From the IMG/VR virus record IMGVR_UViG_3300010352_001202: a stretch of 64,000 bases of DNA. One strand, written 5' to 3'. Position 1 is the stretch's first letter. Every line of letters starts with the position of its first letter. Positions 20,848 through 61,146 of the stretch are shown here, one piece after another. The notes beneath the pieces were generated by a model. That model did no database searches. It was not told the DNA's origin and worked only from the letters and a program-made list of their open reading frames with translations. The translations under genes were made by a program, and so were the position numbers. Source of the DNA: a virus. Taxonomy: Duplodnaviria; Caudoviricetes.

Positions 20848-22041
20848 GTGGAAATCGATAATGTAAAAATGTGGGTGGGTTCTATGGAAGTAGAACAAGC
20901 TGCCCTGGTTCAAATCATGAACATCTCGCAACTGCCTATCCTTGCGGGTCATATGGCTATCATGCCTGATGTCCACATGGGTAAGGGTGCCACTGTTGGT
21001 TCCGTTATTCCTACCCGTTCTGCTATCATTCCTGCTGCTGTTGGTGTTGACATCGGCTGCGGTATGGTTGCTGCAATGACTAATCTGAGGGCCGAAGACC
21101 TTCCAGATTCGCTGTTCTCTTTGAGAAACCAAATTGAACGCGACGTCCCTGTGGGCTTCAACGAGCACGCAAAGGGCATTCCTTCTGTTTCCGGCCCGTA
21201 TGCTGATGTTCTACGAAAGAATCTCAACAAGACTATGGATGCTTTCGAGCACCTAGCCCTGAAGGCGAAGCTTGGCCGCGCTGACGAGAAGAAGATCGGT
21301 CGTCAGGTAGGTACGCTGGGTGGTGGTAACCACTTCATTGAAATCTGTCTTGATGTAAATGGTGCAGTGTGGGTAATGCTACACTCAGGTTCACGCGGCA
21401 TCGGCAATCAAATCGGTACCGTTGCTGTGGAACTTGCTAAGGAGCAGGCTGCAAAGCGCGGATACGGCTTGCCAGATGAAGATTTGGCTTGGCTGGAAGA
21501 AGGTACTCCGGAATTCGATGCGTATATTGAAGCAATGCATTGGGCGCAAGACTATGCACGTTTCAATCGTGATACCATGATGAATTTGGTACTTGCCGGC
21601 CTGCGTCACCGTATTCCGAAGATGCAGGTGGTTGGTGAGGTAATCAACTGCCACCACAACTTTACTTCTTGGGAAGAGCACAACGGATCCGGAATGTGGG
21701 TTACCCGCAAGGGTGCTGTATCCGCCAACGAAGGTCAGCTTGGCATTATTCCGGGATCGATGGGCGCGAAATCTTTTATTGTGAGGGGGAAGGGCAACCA
21801 TGACGCCTACTGTTCGTGTTCGCACGGCGCAGGACGTAAGATGAGCCGGAACCAGGCGAAAAAGCTCTTTACTTCTCTTGACTTGGCTGAGCAGACTGCT
21901 GGTATCGAATGTCGCAAGGATGACGCGGTGATTGACGAAATCCCGGGTGCATATAAGGACATTGATGAAGTTATGGCTGCACAGGCTGATCTTGTGGATG
22001 TTGTTACCACCCTGAAGCAGATTCTCTGTGTAAAGGGTTGA
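20848..22041 (+). CDS. rtcB: RtcB RNA ligase
   Basis: MPDVH, VGVDIGCG, GGGNHFIE, HSGSRG, HN, RKGA, PGSMG, SHGAGR, DEIPGAYKDI. Confidence 0.96.
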   Translation: MEIDNVKMWVGSMEVEQAALVQIMNISQLPILAGHMAIMPDVHMGKGATVGSVIPTRSAIIPAAVGVDIGCGMVAAMTNLRAEDLPDSLFSLRNQIERDVPVGFNEHAKGIPSVSGPYADVLRKNLNKTMDAFEHLALKAKLGRADEKKIGRQVGTLGGGNHFIEICLDVNGAVWVMLHSGSRGIGNQIGTVAVELAKEQAAKRGYGLPDEDLAWLEEGTPEFDAYIEAMHWAQDYARFNRDTMMNLVLAGLRHRIPKMQVVGEVINCHHNFTSWEEHNGSGMWVTRKGAVSANEGQLGIIPGSMGAKSFIVRGKGNHDAYCSCSHGAGRKMSRNQAKKLFTSLDLAEQTAGIECRKDDAVIDEIPGAYKDIDEVMAAQADLVDVVTTLKQILCVKG

Positions 22042-44610: not shown

Positions 44611-44997
44611 TTACTGACCTAGATATTCAATGGCACTTTTCAAGATTGAAACATCATCTTGAAGGTGTCCTAATCCACGATTACAGTTATCACAGAGAAG
44701 CCCGCGGACGCGACCTGTTTCGTGACAATGGTCGACAGTAAGTCTACGCGGTGTTCCGTAGGATGAAATAGCAGTTTCGGGTTTCTTGCATATTCCACAA
44801 ACATTATTGTGGCTTTCTAAAAGCTCTAGATAAGTTTCGTAATCTAATCCATAACGGGATTTCAAATCGGCCTTTAGTGCTCGAAGTCTATTTTTCTCAT
44901 CTGGTAGCTTTTTCAGCCCAAGCCTGGCTTCCTTCAGTGAATTGCTAATTTTTTCCTTGTGTTCCTGCGTTCGTGGTTGCCTTCTTTTATCTTCCAT
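44611..44997 (-). CDS. endonuclease VII-like HNH homing endonuclease
   Basis: RYGL, CGIC, VDHCHETGRVRGLLCDNCNRGLG. Confidence 0.9.
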   Translation of the reverse strand: MEDKRRQPRTQEHKEKISNSLKEARLGLKKLPDEKNRLRALKADLKSRYGLDYETYLELLESHNNVCGICKKPETAISSYGTPRRLTVDHCHETGRVRGLLCDNCNRGLGHLQDDVSILKSAIEYLGQ

Positions 44998-48059: not shown

Positions 48060-48136
48060 GTGCCGGTAGCTCAGTCGGTTAGAGCGTCGACCTCATAAGT
48101 CGCGGGTCGTGGGTTCGAGCCCCACCCGGCGCACCA
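48060..48136 (+). tRNA. tRNA with CAU anticodon (elongator Met or Ile2)
   Basis: Acceptor GTGCCGG/CCGGCGC, loop CTCATAA, GTTCGAG T-loop, CCA; lacks initiator features. Confidence 0.9.
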
Positions 48137-48782
48137 TATCATATTCTTTTACCTTTGCCACAAGTTCTTCGTAGGTAATAGAGCTTTTGGTATGTTTTTT
48201 GGCATTCTCGCTGAAAAGCATAAGTTCACAGTTCAACGGATGTTTTATGTAATATGGATCATACCCATTTATGATAGCTTCGTTGACACTCACCCTGTGA
48301 TCTCTTGTCACACCACCTGGATTATCTTTACTCCTCATTCCGTGTTTCCGAATAAGAGTTCCATCAAAAAGATCTGGATAATCCGATAAAGTGAATGTAA
48401 ACCAAAATTTGGCGCGCCCCTCGTGACTATATAGTGTTTCGTGATTTTCGCATATTTTCTTTGCAGTCCGATCTCTCCAAGAATATCCACAATGTTTACA
48501 GACACATTTATATAGAGTGGAAAATGGTGCCTTAGGTGATTTTGGTTTAGGTACCGGTCCAGTTCTTATCTTTGAATAATCTTTCTTCGCATTCGTGTGC
48601 TTTGCACTGCAAGATCTGGAACAATAGAAATTGTGTTGTTTCCCCCATTCTATTTTTATACCACATCCACAACAGAATTTCGGATTAGCAGCATATTCGG
48701 CCATTCGTCTCTGGCGCATAACTTCTCCACCGAGTTTACCATTTTCCTTACTGGCATTGTTTGACCATTTGCGTTGCGACAT
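48093..48782 (-). CDS. putative HNH-type homing endonuclease with zinc fingers
   Basis: Likely start MSQRKW 4 nt after CTAAATA; YCSRSC, CKHCG, RDHRVS...HPLNCEL...ENAKK. Confidence 0.75.
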   Translation of the reverse strand: MSQRKWSNNASKENGKLGGEVMRQRRMAEYAANPKFCCGCGIKIEWGKQHNFYCSRSCSAKHTNAKKDYSKIRTGPVPKPKSPKAPFSTLYKCVCKHCGYSWRDRTAKKICENHETLYSHEGRAKFWFTFTLSDYPDLFDGTLIRKHGMRSKDNPGGVTRDHRVSVNEAIINGYDPYYIKHPLNCELMLFSENAKKHTKSSITYEELVAKVKEYDMVRRVGLEPTTRDL

Positions 48783-48842
48783 GCTATATTTAGTTCGTAA
48801 CGGTGTCGGCCTATTGTAATCCCGAACCAAACGAAAGACACT

Positions 48843-49226
48843 ATGAACCACGACGACTACATGGCACTCAAGCGCGGTAAGCTCACGCCCATGCGCGGCT
48901 TGCAGAGCATCATTACCGAGGTTGGTGCTGGCGTGTATGCCTACATGGTTATGCTTTCTAATGCGGGACGCGACCAGGAAGCAGGTTTCTACGGCGATAT
49001 TCGTGAGCGTGCATTCAGGATTCGTAGCGAGGTCTACGACAATCCTGTGCAGGAAAATCTTGACAAGTGTTCGGCTGATATGATGTGTATCTATCGCGAC
49101 TTGAATACTGCCTACATCTTCCTGCAAGCACACAAGCCCGATGAGGCTTGTCTCCTGCAATCGGTTACCAATACTGCTTGCGAGCTGGAGTATGACATCA
49201 AACACTTCCTGGATGCTGCAACATGA
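48843..49226 (+). CDS. hypothetical protein
   Basis: 127-aa ORF. Confidence 0.65.
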   Translation: MNHDDYMALKRGKLTPMRGLQSIITEVGAGVYAYMVMLSNAGRDQEAGFYGDIRERAFRIRSEVYDNPVQENLDKCSADMMCIYRDLNTAYIFLQAHKPDEACLLQSVTNTACELEYDIKHFLDAAT

Positions 49227-50317: not shown

Positions 50318-50977
50318 ATGGATTACAATCATCATTATACCAGACTAATAGAAAGAGCAAAAACACGGACTCCAGATCCTGCTATTCATTATGAAAAACA
50401 CCATATTATTCCGCGGTGTCTCAATGGTACAAATGATAAATCAAATCTAGTGAAACTAACACCCGAAGAGCACTATGTTGCACATCAACTATTGGTAAAA
50501 ATATTTCCAGGAAATCGCGGATTAGTTCATGCTGCCACCATGTTATGTGTCGATGGTTCGGGTCATAGATCAAATAATAAAATCTACGGATGGCTTAGAA
50601 AACTCGATGCTGAAACAAAAAGTAAATCGCAAAGGGGTAGAAAACTAGGACCAAATAAAAAGAAAGGCCGACCTGGTCATCCTTCGACCTTAAAGGGAAC
50701 AAAACGAGGCCATCCATGGAACTACGGATTAAAAACAGGACCGAACGGTAAGGCCGGAATAAGTACAGGACCAAATAAAAAGAAGGGTCGGCCCGGTGCT
50801 GCCTCTGCAAGGAAGGGAAAGAAATATGGTCATAATGCTAAACTCGGAAAACCAGATGGTCCACAAGAAAAGATTATATGCCCGTACTGTGGTAAGGAAG
50901 GCGGAAAAGGCGGAATGAAAAGATATCATTTTGTTAACTGTGAGTTCTACAAGCCTATTGACATCACAACGGTGTAA
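50318..50977 (+). CDS. HNH homing endonuclease with repeated basic tail
   Basis: EKHHIIPR...NLVKLTPEEHYVAH; GPNKKKGRPG twice; CPYCGK. Confidence 0.88.
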   Translation: MDYNHHYTRLIERAKTRTPDPAIHYEKHHIIPRCLNGTNDKSNLVKLTPEEHYVAHQLLVKIFPGNRGLVHAATMLCVDGSGHRSNNKIYGWLRKLDAETKSKSQRGRKLGPNKKKGRPGHPSTLKGTKRGHPWNYGLKTGPNGKAGISTGPNKKKGRPGAASARKGKKYGHNAKLGKPDGPQEKIICPYCGKEGGKGGMKRYHFVNCEFYKPIDITTV

Positions 50978-51068: not shown

Positions 51069-51351
51069 GCCCCGATGGTGAAATCAGGTAGACACAAGGG
51101 ACTTAGACAAATTTGAGTGCCTGGTTGGAAACAATCAGAGTAGAACCCGTCAAATTCGGTGAACGCTGTAAAATGCCAATACCGAGCCAAGCCCAAAAGG
51201 GAAGGTGTAGAGACTAGACGGCGGGAACCTAAAGCGAAAGCTATGGTTAAGGTATAGTCCAGACCACAAACAGAAATGGTAACGAAAGTTATAGTGGTAA
51301 GAAAATCCCTCGGCTTCGGCCATGCCGGTTCGATTCCGGCTCGGGGCACCA
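51069..51351 (+). tRNA. tRNA-Leu(UAA), intron-containing (exons 51069-51104 and 51302-51351)
   Basis: Acceptor GCCCCGA/TCGGGGC, spliced anticodon arm AGGGA-CTT|AAAA-TCCCT, long variable arm, CCA. Confidence 0.93.
51105..51301 (+). mobile_element. group I self-splicing intron (IC3-like), 197 nt, no ORF
   Basis: P1 ACUU/GAGU with U.G at the splice site; P3 CCGUC/GACGG; P4 UUCGGU/ACCGAG; P7 GACUA/UAGUC; terminal G. Confidence 0.92.
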
Positions 51352-51365
51352 AGGATACTGGAAAT

Positions 51366-53026: not shown

Positions 53027-53232
53027 CTGAAGACGATACCTTCCGCATCCTTGCACGACCTTCCTATGAGGAAATGATAGGTCTACACCGGGAATGGCAA
53101 ATCGGGTGGCGCAGAACTCATTCCAATAGCAGTACATATCCCTCAACACAGAATATTGTATTTGCAGAGCACTATGGATGGACGTGGCTGGAGTACCAAA
53201 AACAAATACAATACCATAGACTGCATCCATAG
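53023..53232 (+). CDS. small protein, GWTxxE(F/Y) family
   Basis: DDTFRILARPSYEEM...YGWTWLEY. Confidence 0.6.
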   Translation: MTEDDTFRILARPSYEEMIGLHREWQIGWRRTHSNSSTYPSTQNIVFAEHYGWTWLEYQKQIQYHRLHP

Positions 53233-53251
53233 GCACTGTTATACTAACCCC

Positions 53252-53695
53252 ATGGGCCAATATATCAGACATGCTGTAGTACCAATGGAAGAGATCGTTG
53301 AAAAGATCTTATTCTTTTGGGGTGCGCCGCGCCGTACCAAAGCTCTGTTATCAACTGGCCACGAGGTCGGCGTTGTCAGCCTCCGTATGCGGACATTTGG
53401 TAGGGCCGCATCAAGCAAGTCGGGTATCCACTGCAAAGCATGTGGGCTAAAGGCAACGCATTTTGCAATCGAAGGATTTACCGGCAGCCAGATTCCTTCT
53501 GTGCATGCTAATCTGTACGGCATGAAGCACAATGTGGAAGTGCTATTCACACAAGATCATGTCCTTCCTGTATCGCGCGGTGGTAAGGATAGCCTGAATA
53601 ACTCACAGGTAATGTGCCAACCCTGCAACAGCAGAAAGGGTTCGCGCAGCGATAGGAAGTTCAAGGCCGAAATGCGAGGAGAAAAGAAATGCTGA
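53252..53695 (+). CDS. HNH endonuclease family protein
   Basis: CKACG, TQDHVLPVSRGG, NSQVMCQPCNSRKG. Confidence 0.85.
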   Translation: MGQYIRHAVVPMEEIVEKILFFWGAPRRTKALLSTGHEVGVVSLRMRTFGRAASSKSGIHCKACGLKATHFAIEGFTGSQIPSVHANLYGMKHNVEVLFTQDHVLPVSRGGKDSLNNSQVMCQPCNSRKGSRSDRKFKAEMRGEKKC

Positions 53696-54024
53696 TGACA
53701 AAATACAAGTTCCTTACATTGCACGACGAGCGTGGCAATCATCTCGTTGTGACTCGGTTGGAGGACGGTGCGCAAAAGTATTTCTTCCTCGCCGGAGAAG
53801 ATAGGACGCAAGGCCTTACCGAATTTATGAAATCAATGACGGACGAGTTGATCGAGGGCTACTTCCCGAAGCCAGGAAAGCGTGGTGGCAGTCCGGTTGA
53901 CAATTGGGCCTTTCTCGGGCATAATCCCGGGAGACAGCTCGCAGAGCAGCGGGGAAGGTGCTACCCAATCTCCCGAAAGCAGACAAAAGATTTCCGAGGG
54001 TGTAAGAAAATATTATCAAAATAG
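53689..54024 (+). CDS. hypothetical protein, 3' end probably disrupted
   Basis: Composition changes abruptly near 53950-54000. Confidence 0.5.
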   Translation: MLMTKYKFLTLHDERGNHLVVTRLEDGAQKYFFLAGEDRTQGLTEFMKSMTDELIEGYFPKPGKRGGSPVDNWAFLGHNPGRQLAEQRGRCYPISRKQTKDFRGCKKILSK

Positions 54025-54373
54025 AACAGAAGATCAGAGACAAACCAATAGACAAAATAGATCAAAATCTGCAAAATTAGCAAATAGACAAAGAACTATA
54101 ACAGACGAAGAAAGATTAGCAGCATCTATTCGTGCTAAAAAACAACGACGAGAAGAAGACGAATCACAAAGACAAGCAAGAATAGATAAGCAAAAGAAGT
54201 CGAGAAAAGAAAGAACACAGGAACAAAAAGAAGAAACCAATAGGAAAAGAGCAGAATCGTTTCTAAAAAAGACACCCGAACAGATAGCAGAGACTAATAG
54301 AAAAAGAAACGAATCGCATAGGCTGAGACGGCTAAGAATAGCGGGAACAACTGATGATGGTACACCGCAATAA
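53951..54373 (+). pseudogene. orphan DNA-binding tail of a homing endonuclease (NUMOD3-like)
   Basis: GEGATQSPESRQKISE followed by basic repeats; no catalytic domain or credible start. Confidence 0.55.
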
Positions 54374-54379
54374 AAGTAC

Positions 54380-54933
54380 CGAAACGGGCGGATTGTAGAG
54401 AGTAGAAGAGCTTTCCAATCCGCAAGGAAGATCGACTCCAGTGGGATGGGCACTGTCGATTCTCTTCCTTGTGGCCCGTATTGTGCTGGCTGATTAAGAT
54501 CCTTGAGGATCTGAAGGTCACCAAGCCCTCTGGAGGGTGGGTACCGGATATGGACCCCGATAGATACTTCCATGGCATTAGAGTATAGTAAAAATAGAGT
54601 GAAGTAAAAATAAAGTGTGAAAGAAATCAATCTAACCCGAGTCGTCGGCCTGAGGAGATATATCCAAAGTACGCTAACTTTTCTAGATAGGGCCTAAAAA
54701 CCCGGCCACTTTCATCGTGCAGGCGTGGGCGCCACAAGGTGAAATGCACTTATATTTTAATTTTAGATTATAAATTGTGAATGAGTCTCGGAGAACACTG
54801 GAGAAAAGGTAGCGAGAGCTACTGAGTACATTGAAGGTGCTGAGGCGGAGAGTGTCGCTGGAAACGGTGATATCAATAAGTTCTATTGGAGCCTACCAAG
54901 TCTAGCACGGCTAGCGGGTGGGCTTTTCTCTTT
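54380..54933 (+). ncRNA. candidate large structured non-coding RNA
   Basis: About 550 nt without a + strand ORF; many nested stems, GNRA loops, terminator-like 3' end. Confidence 0.6.
54890..54933 (+). terminator. intrinsic terminator
   Basis: AGCCTACC..CTAGC-ACG-GCTAG..GGTGGGCT followed by TTTCTCTTT. Confidence 0.65.
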
Positions 54934-54946
54934 GTCCAAACTCTAT

Positions 54947-54974
54947 TTGACATTGCTGCTGCCCGCGCTATAAT
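54947..54974 (+). promoter_or_regulatory. consensus sigma70 promoter, leaderless spacing
   Basis: TTGACA-16-TATAAT, 6 nt before ATG 54981. Confidence 0.85.
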
Positions 54975-54980
54975 AAGCAC

Positions 54981-55298
54981 ATGGGACACAGAACAATAGT
55001 CATCTTCAACAACGACATTACCGATCAATGGGGCGAAGACCCGGAGCTTGGTAAGAAGATTCAGCGAGCATCGCCACATGCAATGGGTGGCAAGATGGCT
55101 GACTTCGGGACTGGTCGTGTAGTAGAATGCTGCCATGCAGATCAACAAACGCTGGCGGTGATTGATAGCACCAGTATGTTTCCGATTGTGCATTCTAGCT
55201 GGCACCGCGATCAAACCTGGCAGACACGCGATCTGGGACTGCTGAGATTGGCAGCCGAGAAAATGGGTTACAGACTTGTAAAGAAAGCAACAAAATGA
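54981..55298 (+). CDS. hypothetical protein
   Basis: Follows the consensus promoter. Confidence 0.7.
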   Translation: MGHRTIVIFNNDITDQWGEDPELGKKIQRASPHAMGGKMADFGTGRVVECCHADQQTLAVIDSTSMFPIVHSSWHRDQTWQTRDLGLLRLAAEKMGYRLVKKATK

Positions 55299-56335: not shown

Positions 56336-56465
56336 ATTATTATTTAGTTTGCAACCAGATTGACATCTAACTCGCTATAACACATAATACAACTTCCCAG
56401 GACGGTCTGTGATAGGCACAGTGGGGTCCAACAAAGTAACTAATGCCATGAAAGGCACACATAAA

Positions 56466-57209
56466 ATGAAGAAAATCCTTACTGCTCTTGCACTTGCAGC
56501 GTGCACCTTTTCGGCGTCTGCCGGGCTGGTGTTGGGCGCACCCGGTCTTGCTGATCAAGGTACTTTGACCTTGAATAATTTTGCCAATGGTGGCCACAGT
56601 GGCACTATCCAAGCAAACCCGTTTCCTGCCGAATCGGTTGGTGTCGGTGGTATGAACACTACGTTCGCCGGCTCGCTTGCGAGTGACGGTTCGTACACTG
56701 TCTACTGCGTCGAAGCATATTCCCCAGCATATTGGGGCGCAGGCGGTGCGCATGTTTACGACTTCGGTGCTGCTGCTGTCAGTGCTCAGAGCATCCTGAT
56801 CAGCAAGCTGTTCACTGTCAACGGCGGCGTGACTGCTTCGAGTAACGACAACTCCGCTGGCCTGCAGCTGGCTATCTGGGAAGTTTTGTATGACTCGAAT
56901 CCGGTGGACGTGACCTCCGGCCAGTTTCATGCATCCGTTACTTCCGGCGCCACTGCACGGGCCAACTACCTGCTGTCGCAAGTCAACTCGGTCGGTGCCA
57001 ACTACATGGTATCGTTGTTCACTGATAACAACCTGGAGAAGCCGGGCCGACAAGACTTCATCACCGTGACCGCAGGGACGTTCGGCTGTAATGAAAATGA
57101 TTGTGGCGGCACCGTTCCCGAACCAGGCAGCCTAGCACTTGCTGGCATGGGCCTTATGGGCGCAGGCGTGGTTGGTCGGCGTCGCAAGCTGAAGGTTGTT
57201 TCCGAGTAA
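56466..57209 (+). CDS. PEP-CTERM sorting domain exported protein
   Basis: Signal peptide; YCVE and GLQLAIWE; C-terminal VPEPGSLALAGMGLMGAGVVGRRRK. Confidence 0.92.
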   Translation: MKKILTALALAACTFSASAGLVLGAPGLADQGTLTLNNFANGGHSGTIQANPFPAESVGVGGMNTTFAGSLASDGSYTVYCVEAYSPAYWGAGGAHVYDFGAAAVSAQSILISKLFTVNGGVTASSNDNSAGLQLAIWEVLYDSNPVDVTSGQFHASVTSGATARANYLLSQVNSVGANYMVSLFTDNNLEKPGRQDFITVTAGTFGCNENDCGGTVPEPGSLALAGMGLMGAGVVGRRRKLKVVSE

Positions 57210-58507: not shown

Positions 58508-58888
58508 ATGAACGCGAAGCCAGGAGATAAGTTTTCACTCAGGATACCTGGTCAGGGTGTCCAAAACAAGGTTGCCTGCATCAAGGCTATCCGTACACTT
58601 ACGGGCCTTGGGCTGAAGGAAGCAAAGGATGCGTCCGAACGCTACAACGAGCAGCAATCTTTCGAGTTCTCTGGCTCGCTCTTCCTTCCACACATCGCCA
58701 CCGATCAAGAAATCGATAACCAGTTCCGCATCCTGCGTGCTGAAATGGTTGAAGTCGGTGATCCCGTCTACAAACTGCTGGAAGAACTTCGCAGAATCGG
58801 TGCGCAAGCATTGATTCAAGGTGAAGACGAACTTGCCAACGAAATCCTTCAACTTGTCTTAGCGGAGAAACTTCGTAGAGCTGTATGA
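58508..58888 (+). CDS. ribosomal protein L7/L12 C-terminal-domain-like protein
   Basis: NKVACIKAIRTLTGLGLKEAKDASE resembles KVAVIKAVRxxTGLGLKEAKDLVE. Confidence 0.75.
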   Translation: MNAKPGDKFSLRIPGQGVQNKVACIKAIRTLTGLGLKEAKDASERYNEQQSFEFSGSLFLPHIATDQEIDNQFRILRAEMVEVGDPVYKLLEELRRIGAQALIQGEDELANEILQLVLAEKLRRAV

Positions 58889-60371: not shown

Positions 60372-60605
60372 ATGGCACTCTTAGGAAAACAGGTCAAACT
60401 TACTGGCCTCAGTCAAAAGGGCAAGAACAGGGTCAGGGAACACTCAAACGAGTGGGTAGTTCTCGCGGAAACAGATCATGTTTTGTTCGCACCGGGGGCT
60501 GTTGGCCCGTGGATCTTTGTGTCCCCGAAGGGCTGCGATCAGAATCACAAGGCATCGAGATGGATCAAGGTAACCGGGGACCCCGATTTTAGGATAGAGG
60601 AGTAG
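60372..60605 (+). CDS. hypothetical phage protein
   Basis: KGKNRVREH...W...RWI...DPDF. Confidence 0.65.
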
Positions 60606-61146
60606 ACTCCAACCTTTGTAGTCTTTTTGCCTCTTCTCTTGCCTTTGCTGCTATTTTCATCCGGGCTTTTGTTTCTTCGCTTTTCGGACCGAATGATCTT
60701 CCCTTCAGGGCTGCACTTAGTTTATCTTTTGTTTCATTACTGATTTGTTTCTTCGGCCTGCCTAAGTGATATTCCCTAATCCTGGCCTTTGCCTCTTCTG
60801 TGTGATGATAACCCGGTTTTCCCTTTCTTCCTTTTTGTATAATACTTTTTTGTTTTTTCTGTTCCTCTGTATATTGATAACCGGATGTTCCGTCGCCACC
60901 ATCCGTCCTGTTATTTAGAATACCTGTTCCTAAGTCCTTCCTACCATACCACCTAATCATTCTGCGTTCAAGAGCAAATGCTCCAATCTCGGATAGGTTG
61001 GTCTCTAAGAAAACTATTCTAAAACGATCTCTCGGTGTAGTCGCACTTCCGTTATGCGGTCTTACAGCACGATCGCCTTTTCCTTTTCCAATGTAATATG
61101 GTGTCCCATCCTTTCGGAGGTAAGCATAGACATAAAATATATACAT
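60589..61146 (-). CDS. GIY-YIG homing endonuclease with NUMOD3 repeats
   Basis: YVYAY...YYIGKG, R, E and NRTDGGDG; HTEEAK, SEETK; GATAAATA 4 nt upstream. Confidence 0.9.

What the first reader, a model, noticed from the sequence alone, without database searches (positions are those of the whole stretch)
54380..54933. About 550-nt ORF-free, heavily base-paired region: candidate large structured RNA
Seen: the longest non-coding stretch in a densely packed genome. Nested stems are ACGGGC(54384)/GCCCGT(54474), GGATTG/CAATCC, CAAGGAAGA(54423)/TCTTCCTTG(54463), ATCGAC/GTCGAT and CAGTG/CACTG. Hairpins are AGATCCT/AGGATCT and CCCTC/GAGGG. Long-range pairings are AAAATAAAGTG(54607)/CACTTATATTTT(54747) and TTTCATC/GGTGAAA. 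GNRA-capped hairpins are GTAGC-GAGA-GCTAC(54809) and TCGCTG-GAAA-CGGTGA(54855), and a terminator-like element ends the region. Known: large ornate RNAs such as GOLLD and ROOL occur in phages near tRNA genes. I cannot match it to tmRNA, RNase P or a group I/II intron. Inference: a known ornate RNA variant or a new class.
Basis: partly seen in the sequence, partly recalled or inferred. Interest (0 to 1): 0.78.

Follow-up and report, generated by a model that had tools for sequence, protein, structure and literature searches.

The report
Hammerhead-released large RNA of jumbo phages
This gene-free stretch of an uncultured giant phage holds a self-cutting hammerhead RNA followed by a conserved, folded RNA of about 450 bases that matches no catalogued family; the hammerhead should cut that RNA free, and what the RNA then does is unproven.

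Summary
A type I hammerhead ribozyme (54345-54487, 84-nt insert in stem III) has a predicted cut at 54480|54481. Behind it lies a ~450-nt RNA ending at a terminator (~54933); the next gene has its own perfect promoter. I found the unit in 23 other uncultured phage loci (complete relative: 365 kb, T4-type capsid), about 56% identical on average, and none in cultured phages, plasmids or bacterial genomes. The hammerhead shows compensatory stems, a G3:C8 core swap and an invariant U1.7. The released RNA is modular (205-460 nt): a universal ~115-nt core plus optional 5' and 3' domains, with strong covariation. No Rfam family matches; it is not ROOL, GOLLD, tmRNA, RNase P or an intron. Best reading: a stand-alone phage ncRNA matured by the ribozyme, acting in trans, probably by binding a protein (inferred). 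Cleavage, expression and partner are untested. The hammerhead lead came from an earlier scan note, and the scan had already found this family on another genome (locus L073).

The parts
53897..53925 (+). Sigma-70-type promoter (11/12 consensus); likely start of the precursor transcript
   Evidence: relatives have a promoter of the same type upstream of the hammerhead, mostly 150-890 nt away
53882..54373 (+). 5'-truncated remnant of a probable GIY-YIG-type homing endonuclease gene; its last codons and stop lie inside the hammerhead core and loop II
   Evidence: 73% identical over residues 22-162 to the C-half of the intact ORF at the same place in L033; GIY-YIG call rests on the YVY..YIG motif (own knowledge), Pfam gave no hit and PHROG only unknown-function families
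54345..54487 (+). Type I hammerhead ribozyme: stem I 54347-50/54481-84, CUGAUGA 54351-57, extra U 54358, stem II 54359-63/54376-80, GAAA 54381-84, stem III 54385-89/54474-78, GUA 54478-80, U1.7 54487; predicted cut between 54480 and 54481
   Evidence: sequence; 21 homologues with compensatory stems
54390..54473 (+). Branched insert closing stem III (two hairpins); variable in the family (stem III plus insert 38-130 nt)
   Evidence: two compensatory pairs in run X6
54481..54933 (+). Predicted released ncRNA, about 450 nt, 5'-OH start, terminator end
   Evidence: cleavage and expression not shown
54497..54575 (+). Optional 5' domain: hairpin 54497-54512, long helix 54521-54575 capped by a conserved GGAUAU loop
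   Evidence: 94% paired, 17 double changes, 0/500 shuffles; this subtype in 9 of 21
54637..54746 (+). Universal core: H1 54637-48, near-invariant 3-bp hairpin with GAUAUA loop 54654-65, H3 54690-703, CCACU box 54706-10, H4 54707-46
54785..54873 (+). Optional 3' domain: P5 54785-91/54840-46, AGAA bulge, CACU/GGUG helix, variable hairpin 54808-23, helix H6 54852-73
   Evidence: P5 90/90 cells paired in cis, 66% in trans; in 16 of 21
54889..54933 (+). Intrinsic terminator-like stem and U-rich tail
   Evidence: covarying stem in all homologues; not called by the strict scan
54947..54974 (+). Perfect TTGACA/TATAAT promoter of the downstream gene (54981-55298), which is therefore transcribed separately
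   Evidence: similar promoter detected in 19 of 21 loci

Best explanation
A free-standing phage ncRNA gene with a built-in maturation ribozyme. Host-type RNA polymerase starts at the promoter at 53897 and reads through a leader (in relatives a cassette of other structured RNAs, here a dead nuclease gene). The hammerhead folds and cuts at 54480|54481, and the terminator sets the 3' end. The result is a ~450-nt RNA with a fixed 5'-hydroxyl end, whatever lies upstream, and one that RNase E attacks less readily. The RNA then acts in trans, most likely as a decoy or scaffold that binds a host or phage protein through the invariant loops of its core, with optional domains adding sites. Shown: conservation, secondary structure, hammerhead anatomy, flanking signals. 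Inferred: transcription and cleavage (about 0.85 for the family, 0.7 for this copy), stability, action in trans (about 0.75), protein binding as the job (about 0.4).
For: Hammerhead core complete in 21/21, anchored stems paired 98%, 99% and 95% in cis against 94%, 65% and 63% in trans. G3:C8 swap of the C3-G8 pair in L125 and L165; covariation at this pair marks active cores (PMC3088659). Unpaired U1.7 in 21/21 and loop II ending in A in 19/21, fitting the conserved reverse-Hoogsteen contact (PMC6155905). The RNA is never found without the hammerhead, while the upstream DNA changes freely. Core: 90% of cells paired, 16 of 22 pairs with double changes, 0/500 shuffles; a model from 11 seeds recovered all 10 held-out loci and nothing else in 804 kb. 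Conservation in other samples stops at the element's ends. Terminator plus separate downstream promoter argue against cis control. Invariant letters sit in loops and bulges while domains are gained and lost, as expected of binding sites. 5'-hydroxyl RNA is a poorer RNase E substrate (PMC4191395).
Against: No cleavage assay, no RNA data, no partner. In this copy stem I is only 4 bp plus a mismatch, the core has an extra U, and stems I and II have low predicted probability once flanks are added (0.04-0.07; 0.56-0.60 with minimal flanks), though many homologues behave alike. The 3' product alone folds only modestly better than shuffles (mean z -1.9, other strand -1.4), and the comparative fold is 14 kcal/mol above the minimum-energy fold. 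The CM alignment leans toward its own structure and related sequences inflate shuffle tests. One relative (L123) has lost most of the RNA, so it may be dispensable.
Confidence: 0.6

Rival explanations
1. The released RNA self-assembles into an RNA-only multimer like OLE, ROOL or GOLLD, through the self-complementary core loop (GAUAUAUC) or a kissing contact between the GGAUAU loop and the core's AUAUCC.
For: The core 8-mer is a palindrome in most members; the 5'-domain loop is complementary to the core; palindromic kissing loops bridge OLE and GOLLD chains (PMC12286853).
Against: L121, L220, L221 and L232 break the palindrome without restoring it; the GGAUAU domain is in only 9 of 21; members as short as 205 nt exist; no covarying pseudoknot found.
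Confidence: 0.15
2. The hammerhead only trims the upstream RNA cassette or message; the downstream part is a trailer, or works as DNA (origin or protein-binding site).
For: Most relatives have other structured modules upstream; L123 keeps the hammerhead but little of the RNA; bacterial hammerheads are proposed to process polycistronic transcripts (PMC6765202).
Against: 200-460 nt of helices kept through G-U and double changes is RNA-level selection; the unit persists in this window where the upstream modules are gone.
Confidence: 0.1
3. The core is itself a second catalyst or a ligand-binding RNA of a new class.
For: Compact 115-nt multi-helix core with invariant unpaired letters in every member; new self-cleaving classes were found beside hammerheads (PMC6765202).
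Against: No match to any Rfam ribozyme or riboswitch; no supported pseudoknot; no downstream gene under its control.
Confidence: 0.1
4. The RNA mimics part of rRNA and soaks up ribosomal proteins.
For: The 3' domain shares two short words, in order, with 16S helix 23; an L7/L12-like gene lies a few kb downstream in most relatives.
Against: Profile and CM searches of 16S and 23S gave nothing significant (best E 0.8); the resemblance was noticed after the fact; that domain is missing in 5 of 21.
Confidence: 0.05
5. It is part of a mobile intron or nuclease-guide element belonging to the upstream homing endonuclease.
For: The nuclease ORF ends inside the hammerhead in this window and L033; NUMOD3 or HNH ORFs lie near other copies.
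Against: The overlap is seen in only 2 of 21; one copy per genome at a fixed place; no intron match; here the nuclease has lost its N-terminal half while the RNA is intact.
Confidence: 0.03

Closest known systems
Type I hammerhead ribozymes of phages and prophages (Rfam RF00163; Perreault et al. 2011, PMC3088659)
   Same: Full core, three stems, NUH site, open stem I, likely loop II-stem I contact; phage setting.
   Different: Stem III always carries a long, often branched insert, so Rfam misses it (best 16.4 bits, cut-off 34); it heads a conserved large ncRNA instead of flanking small ORFs.
Theta ribozymes (PMC10879173)
   Same: A phage self-cleaving ribozyme placed to mature a neighbouring non-coding RNA.
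   Different: Theta is HDV-like and trims the 3' side of tRNAs; here a hammerhead would make the 5' end of a non-tRNA of 205-460 nt.
ROOL, GOLLD and OLE ornate RNAs (PMC5737381, PMC12286853)
   Same: Large structured RNA of unknown function in phages, a few kb from tRNA genes, with conserved domains joined by unconserved linkers.
   Different: No sequence or CM match; shorter; no supported pseudoknots (ROOL has three); 5' end set by a ribozyme; so far one phage clade only.
T4 tRNA-cluster transcript with species I and II RNAs and segB (PMC2330249)
   Same: T4-type phage, one precursor holding small RNAs, invaded by a free-standing GIY-YIG nuclease gene.
   Different: No ribozyme is described there in the passages read; sequence relationship not tested.

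Membership tests
Type I hammerhead ribozyme | Core C3 U4 G5 A6 N7 G8 A9, G12 A13 A14 A15, U16 H17 | tested here: met
   All present; one extra U after A9, as in L033 and L226; a natural extra nucleotide is reported for a viroid hammerhead (title cited in PMC6155905; position from own knowledge)
Type I hammerhead ribozyme | Stems I, II, III closing the core, stem I open | tested here: met
   stem I of this copy is 4 bp plus a mismatch, among the weakest of the set
Type I hammerhead ribozyme | Tertiary contact between loop II and stem I | tested here: inconclusive
   U1.7 21/21, terminal loop A 19/21; signature only
Type I hammerhead ribozyme | Self-cleavage after H17 | not testable with these tools
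   needs an in vitro assay
ROOL RNA | Match to the Rfam model | tested here: not met
   no hit at E<=10, none at cut-off in 18 homologous loci
ROOL RNA | About 581 nt, six multistem junctions, three pseudoknots (PMC5737381) | tested here: not met
   205-461 nt; no conserved pseudoknot detected
GOLLD RNA | Match to the Rfam model; often over 800 nt with a universally conserved 3' region | tested here: not met
   here the 3' domain is optional
ROOL/GOLLD/OLE | RNA-only multimer | not testable with these tools
   needs biophysics
tmRNA | tRNA-like domain with T-loop and CCA end; conserved tag frame | tested here: not met
   ARAGORN and Rfam negative; the frame after the resume-like word differs among homologues because of 1-nt indels
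RNase P RNA | P4 pseudoknot between conserved regions I and V | tested here: not met
   look-alike words are 45 nt apart and not complementary; no Rfam hit
Group I / II intron | Catalytic core (P7, or domain V) and interrupted host gene | tested here: not met
   no hit here, while the same scan finds the real group I intron at 51095

The most novel reading that the evidence does not exclude
This phage clade runs a non-coding RNA operon of up to six uncatalogued structured RNAs, cut apart by tRNA look-alikes and a hammerhead, and the released RNA is a new functional class (a trans-acting decoy, self-assembling particle or new ribozyme) used in host takeover or counter-defence.
Probability: 0.3. 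Interest if true: 0.88.

Novelty: new variant of a known kind. Interest (0 to 1): 0.66.

Why it matters
The biological job of bacterial and phage hammerheads is an open question (PMC6765202, PMC6155905). Here one is tied without exception to the start of a conserved large RNA, which gives a precise, cheap test: one predicted cut site, one predicted product. It also adds an uncatalogued family of large phage ncRNAs with natural deletion variants (205 to 460 nt) that map its essential core, and shows that hammerheads with long stem III inserts escape Rfam, so more such genes are probably hidden.

Tried and rejected
Rfam at cut-off and at E<=10: nothing for the RNA. Cultured phages and plasmids by blastn: nothing. 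Bacterial and archaeal genomes: exact pattern 0 hits; loose pattern 33 hits, none better than E 0.03 with the model, taken as chance. More distant jumbo phages sharing the downstream gene: no core found in 19 records, most incomplete. First pattern from the hammerhead loop: 0 hits. No RNA holder listed among sequencing runs; run X9 is probably DNA; no evidence either way on expression. Tag or peptide coding: frames not conserved. Twister-like reading of 54515-54540: key letters change in all three laid runs. CsrA sponge: GGA 2.3 per 100 nt against 1.6 genome-wide, ANGGA 0.68 against 0.52, not tested further and not convincing. Antisense target in the own contig: longest match 12 nt, chance. 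Reverse transcriptase: none in G000. Ro/TROVE: none in G000 or five relatives, one complete. rRNA mimicry: not significant. RNAalifold on plain MAFFT alignments missed most core helices through misregister. A possible pairing of the stem III insert with the CACUGG word holds in only about half the loci and competes with local stems. Seven paper searches found no description of this RNA; the library lacks most subscription papers.

Full report
Setting. The window is part of a 152.7-kb viral contig, estimated 39% complete, held in full by two activated-sludge runs that may be its source. A complete relative is 364.6 kb with a Gp23-type capsid gene, so this is an uncultured T4-type jumbo phage. 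The nearest cultured match of the neighbouring gene is only 43% identical. tRNA genes lie 3-7 kb upstream.

Observation. The stretch 54374-54980 is the longest gene-free gap of the window. It folds better than shuffles on the + strand (z -3.13) and less so on the - strand (-1.65). Rfam has nothing for it, even at E<=10.

The missed hammerhead. An earlier scan note on this same stretch proposed a hammerhead; I checked it. CUGAUGA is at 54351, stem II at 54359-63/54376-80, GAAA at 54381, stem III at 54385-89/54474-78, then U-A and stem I (54481-84 with 54347-50). The predicted cut is between 54480 and 54481.

Homologues. Searches by the downstream gene and by conserved words gave 20 further full-length loci, one truncated one (L123) and two found late (L232, L237). 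The 3' products are 41-95% identical to each other (mean 56%) and 47-67% to this one. Every fetched locus whose downstream gene is 58% or more identical carries the element; with one exception (L020), more distant ones do not. Contigs from four other studies match almost only inside 54380-54974. There is one copy per genome tested and none in cultured phages, plasmids or bacterial genomes.

The hammerhead looks selected for activity. All 21 have the full core. Stems anchored on invariant letters, with no folding step, pair at 98, 99 and 95% within a sequence against 94, 65 and 63% between sequences. L125 and L165 read GUGAUCA, a swap of the C3-G8 pair; covariation of this pair is a known mark of working cores (PMC3088659). 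U1.7 is invariant and loop II ends in A in 19 of 21, matching the reverse-Hoogsteen contact of type I and III hammerheads (PMC6155905). This copy is among the weaker ones: 4-bp stem I, an extra U, low ensemble probability with flanks. Cleavage was not tested.

The released RNA. It has three blocks joined by unconserved AU-rich linkers. A 5' domain comes in at least two subtypes or is absent; the subtype here shows 17 double changes and 94% pairing on a plain alignment. A ~115-nt core is in every full member: H1, a near-invariant 3-bp hairpin with a GAUAUA loop, H3, a CCACU box and H4 with a bulge; 16 of 22 pairs show double changes (on a model-fitted alignment; the model found 10 held-out loci). 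A 3' domain is in 16 of 21; its helix P5 pairs in 90 of 90 cells against 66% in trans. A covarying terminator stem ends all copies, and the next gene has its own promoter. Lengths run from 205 to 461 nt. No ORF is conserved, and no pseudoknot or antisense target is supported.

Upstream. In most relatives a promoter and up to five other structured modules precede the hammerhead; one, with a 7-bp acceptor-like stem and a T-loop, is in 14 of 21 loci. The four present in L227 match nothing in Rfam. In this window and L033 a probable GIY-YIG nuclease gene has inserted so that it ends inside the hammerhead; here only its C-half is left, behind an intact promoter. The RNA is intact regardless, so the nuclease is a passenger.

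How it most likely works. Transcription from 53897-53925 (inferred), self-cleavage at 54480 (strongly predicted), termination near 54933 (predicted), giving a 5'-hydroxyl RNA less open to 5'-dependent RNase E attack (PMC4191395). The cut gives the RNA a constant start whatever inserts upstream. Because it has its own ends and controls no downstream gene, it should act in trans. Invariant loops on a modular frame fit a protein-binding decoy or scaffold best (about 0.4); RNA-only assembly, a second catalytic activity, a mere trailer and rRNA mimicry are weaker rivals. The phage encodes RtcB, which joins exactly the ends a hammerhead makes, but RtcB is common and no link is shown.

Comparison and novelty. 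The hammerhead is a member of a known class by every feature testable here. The product fails membership of ROOL, GOLLD, tmRNA, RNase P and introns. It resembles the ornate RNAs in being a large orphan phage RNA, and theta ribozymes in having a ribozyme as maturation device. I found no paper on it in seven searches. The scan had already noted the same family on the genome of L073, and similar hammerhead-plus-ncRNA layouts in other jumbo phages whose homology I did not test; these notes are leads, not support. Verdict: real, uncatalogued RNA family with a sharp testable prediction and an unproven job; interest 0.66.

Noticed in passing
L227:1620-2380, L120:1580-2250, L121:1915-2570, L122:2315-3070, L224:2135-2800: Promoter-led cassette of further conserved structured modules (M1-M5) upstream of the hammerhead, including two tRNA look-alikes with T-loops and a probable double-pseudoknot motif; the four in L227 have no Rfam match; absent from this incomplete contig.
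   Followed up: partly
window 51069-51352 (+): A tRNA gene, by its UA^A anticodon probably Leu, split by a group I intron (51095-51282); missed by ARAGORN. L108 has a group I intron about 3 kb upstream of its element too.
   Followed up: partly
window 20848-22038 (+): RtcB RNA ligase; also in relatives G001 and G002.
   Followed up: partly
window 56409-57209 (+): Phage-encoded protein with a PEP-CTERM sorting motif and a weak thioester-domain hit, unusual for a virus.
   Followed up: no
window 58508-58888 (+): Probable ribosomal L7/L12-like gene; the equivalent gene in many relatives has Pfam PF00542 hits.
   Followed up: no
window 44611-44997 (-), 48093-49205 (-), 50318-50977 (+), 53156-53695 (+), 60589-61146 (-): Dense set of known or probable free-standing homing endonuclease genes around the tRNA and ncRNA region.
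   Followed up: no
L236:2097-2195, L238:2369-2467: Hammerhead cores with the same 5' stem I sequence but a short stem III and no downstream RNA, directly before an ORF in other phages.
   Followed up: no
L123:2941-3330: Truncated copy: hammerhead and first half of the core kept, the rest replaced by a single hairpin.
   Followed up: partly
L226 and L227 core helix H4; window 54707-54746: Near-identical H4 in copies whose other domains differ strongly, and L124/L125 share the 3' half but not the 5' half, suggesting domain swapping between phages.
   Followed up: no
window 5174, 12392, 24882, 31459, 33092, 45189, 61754: Seven single-base differences between the window and the stored genome G000; none in the finding.
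   Followed up: no
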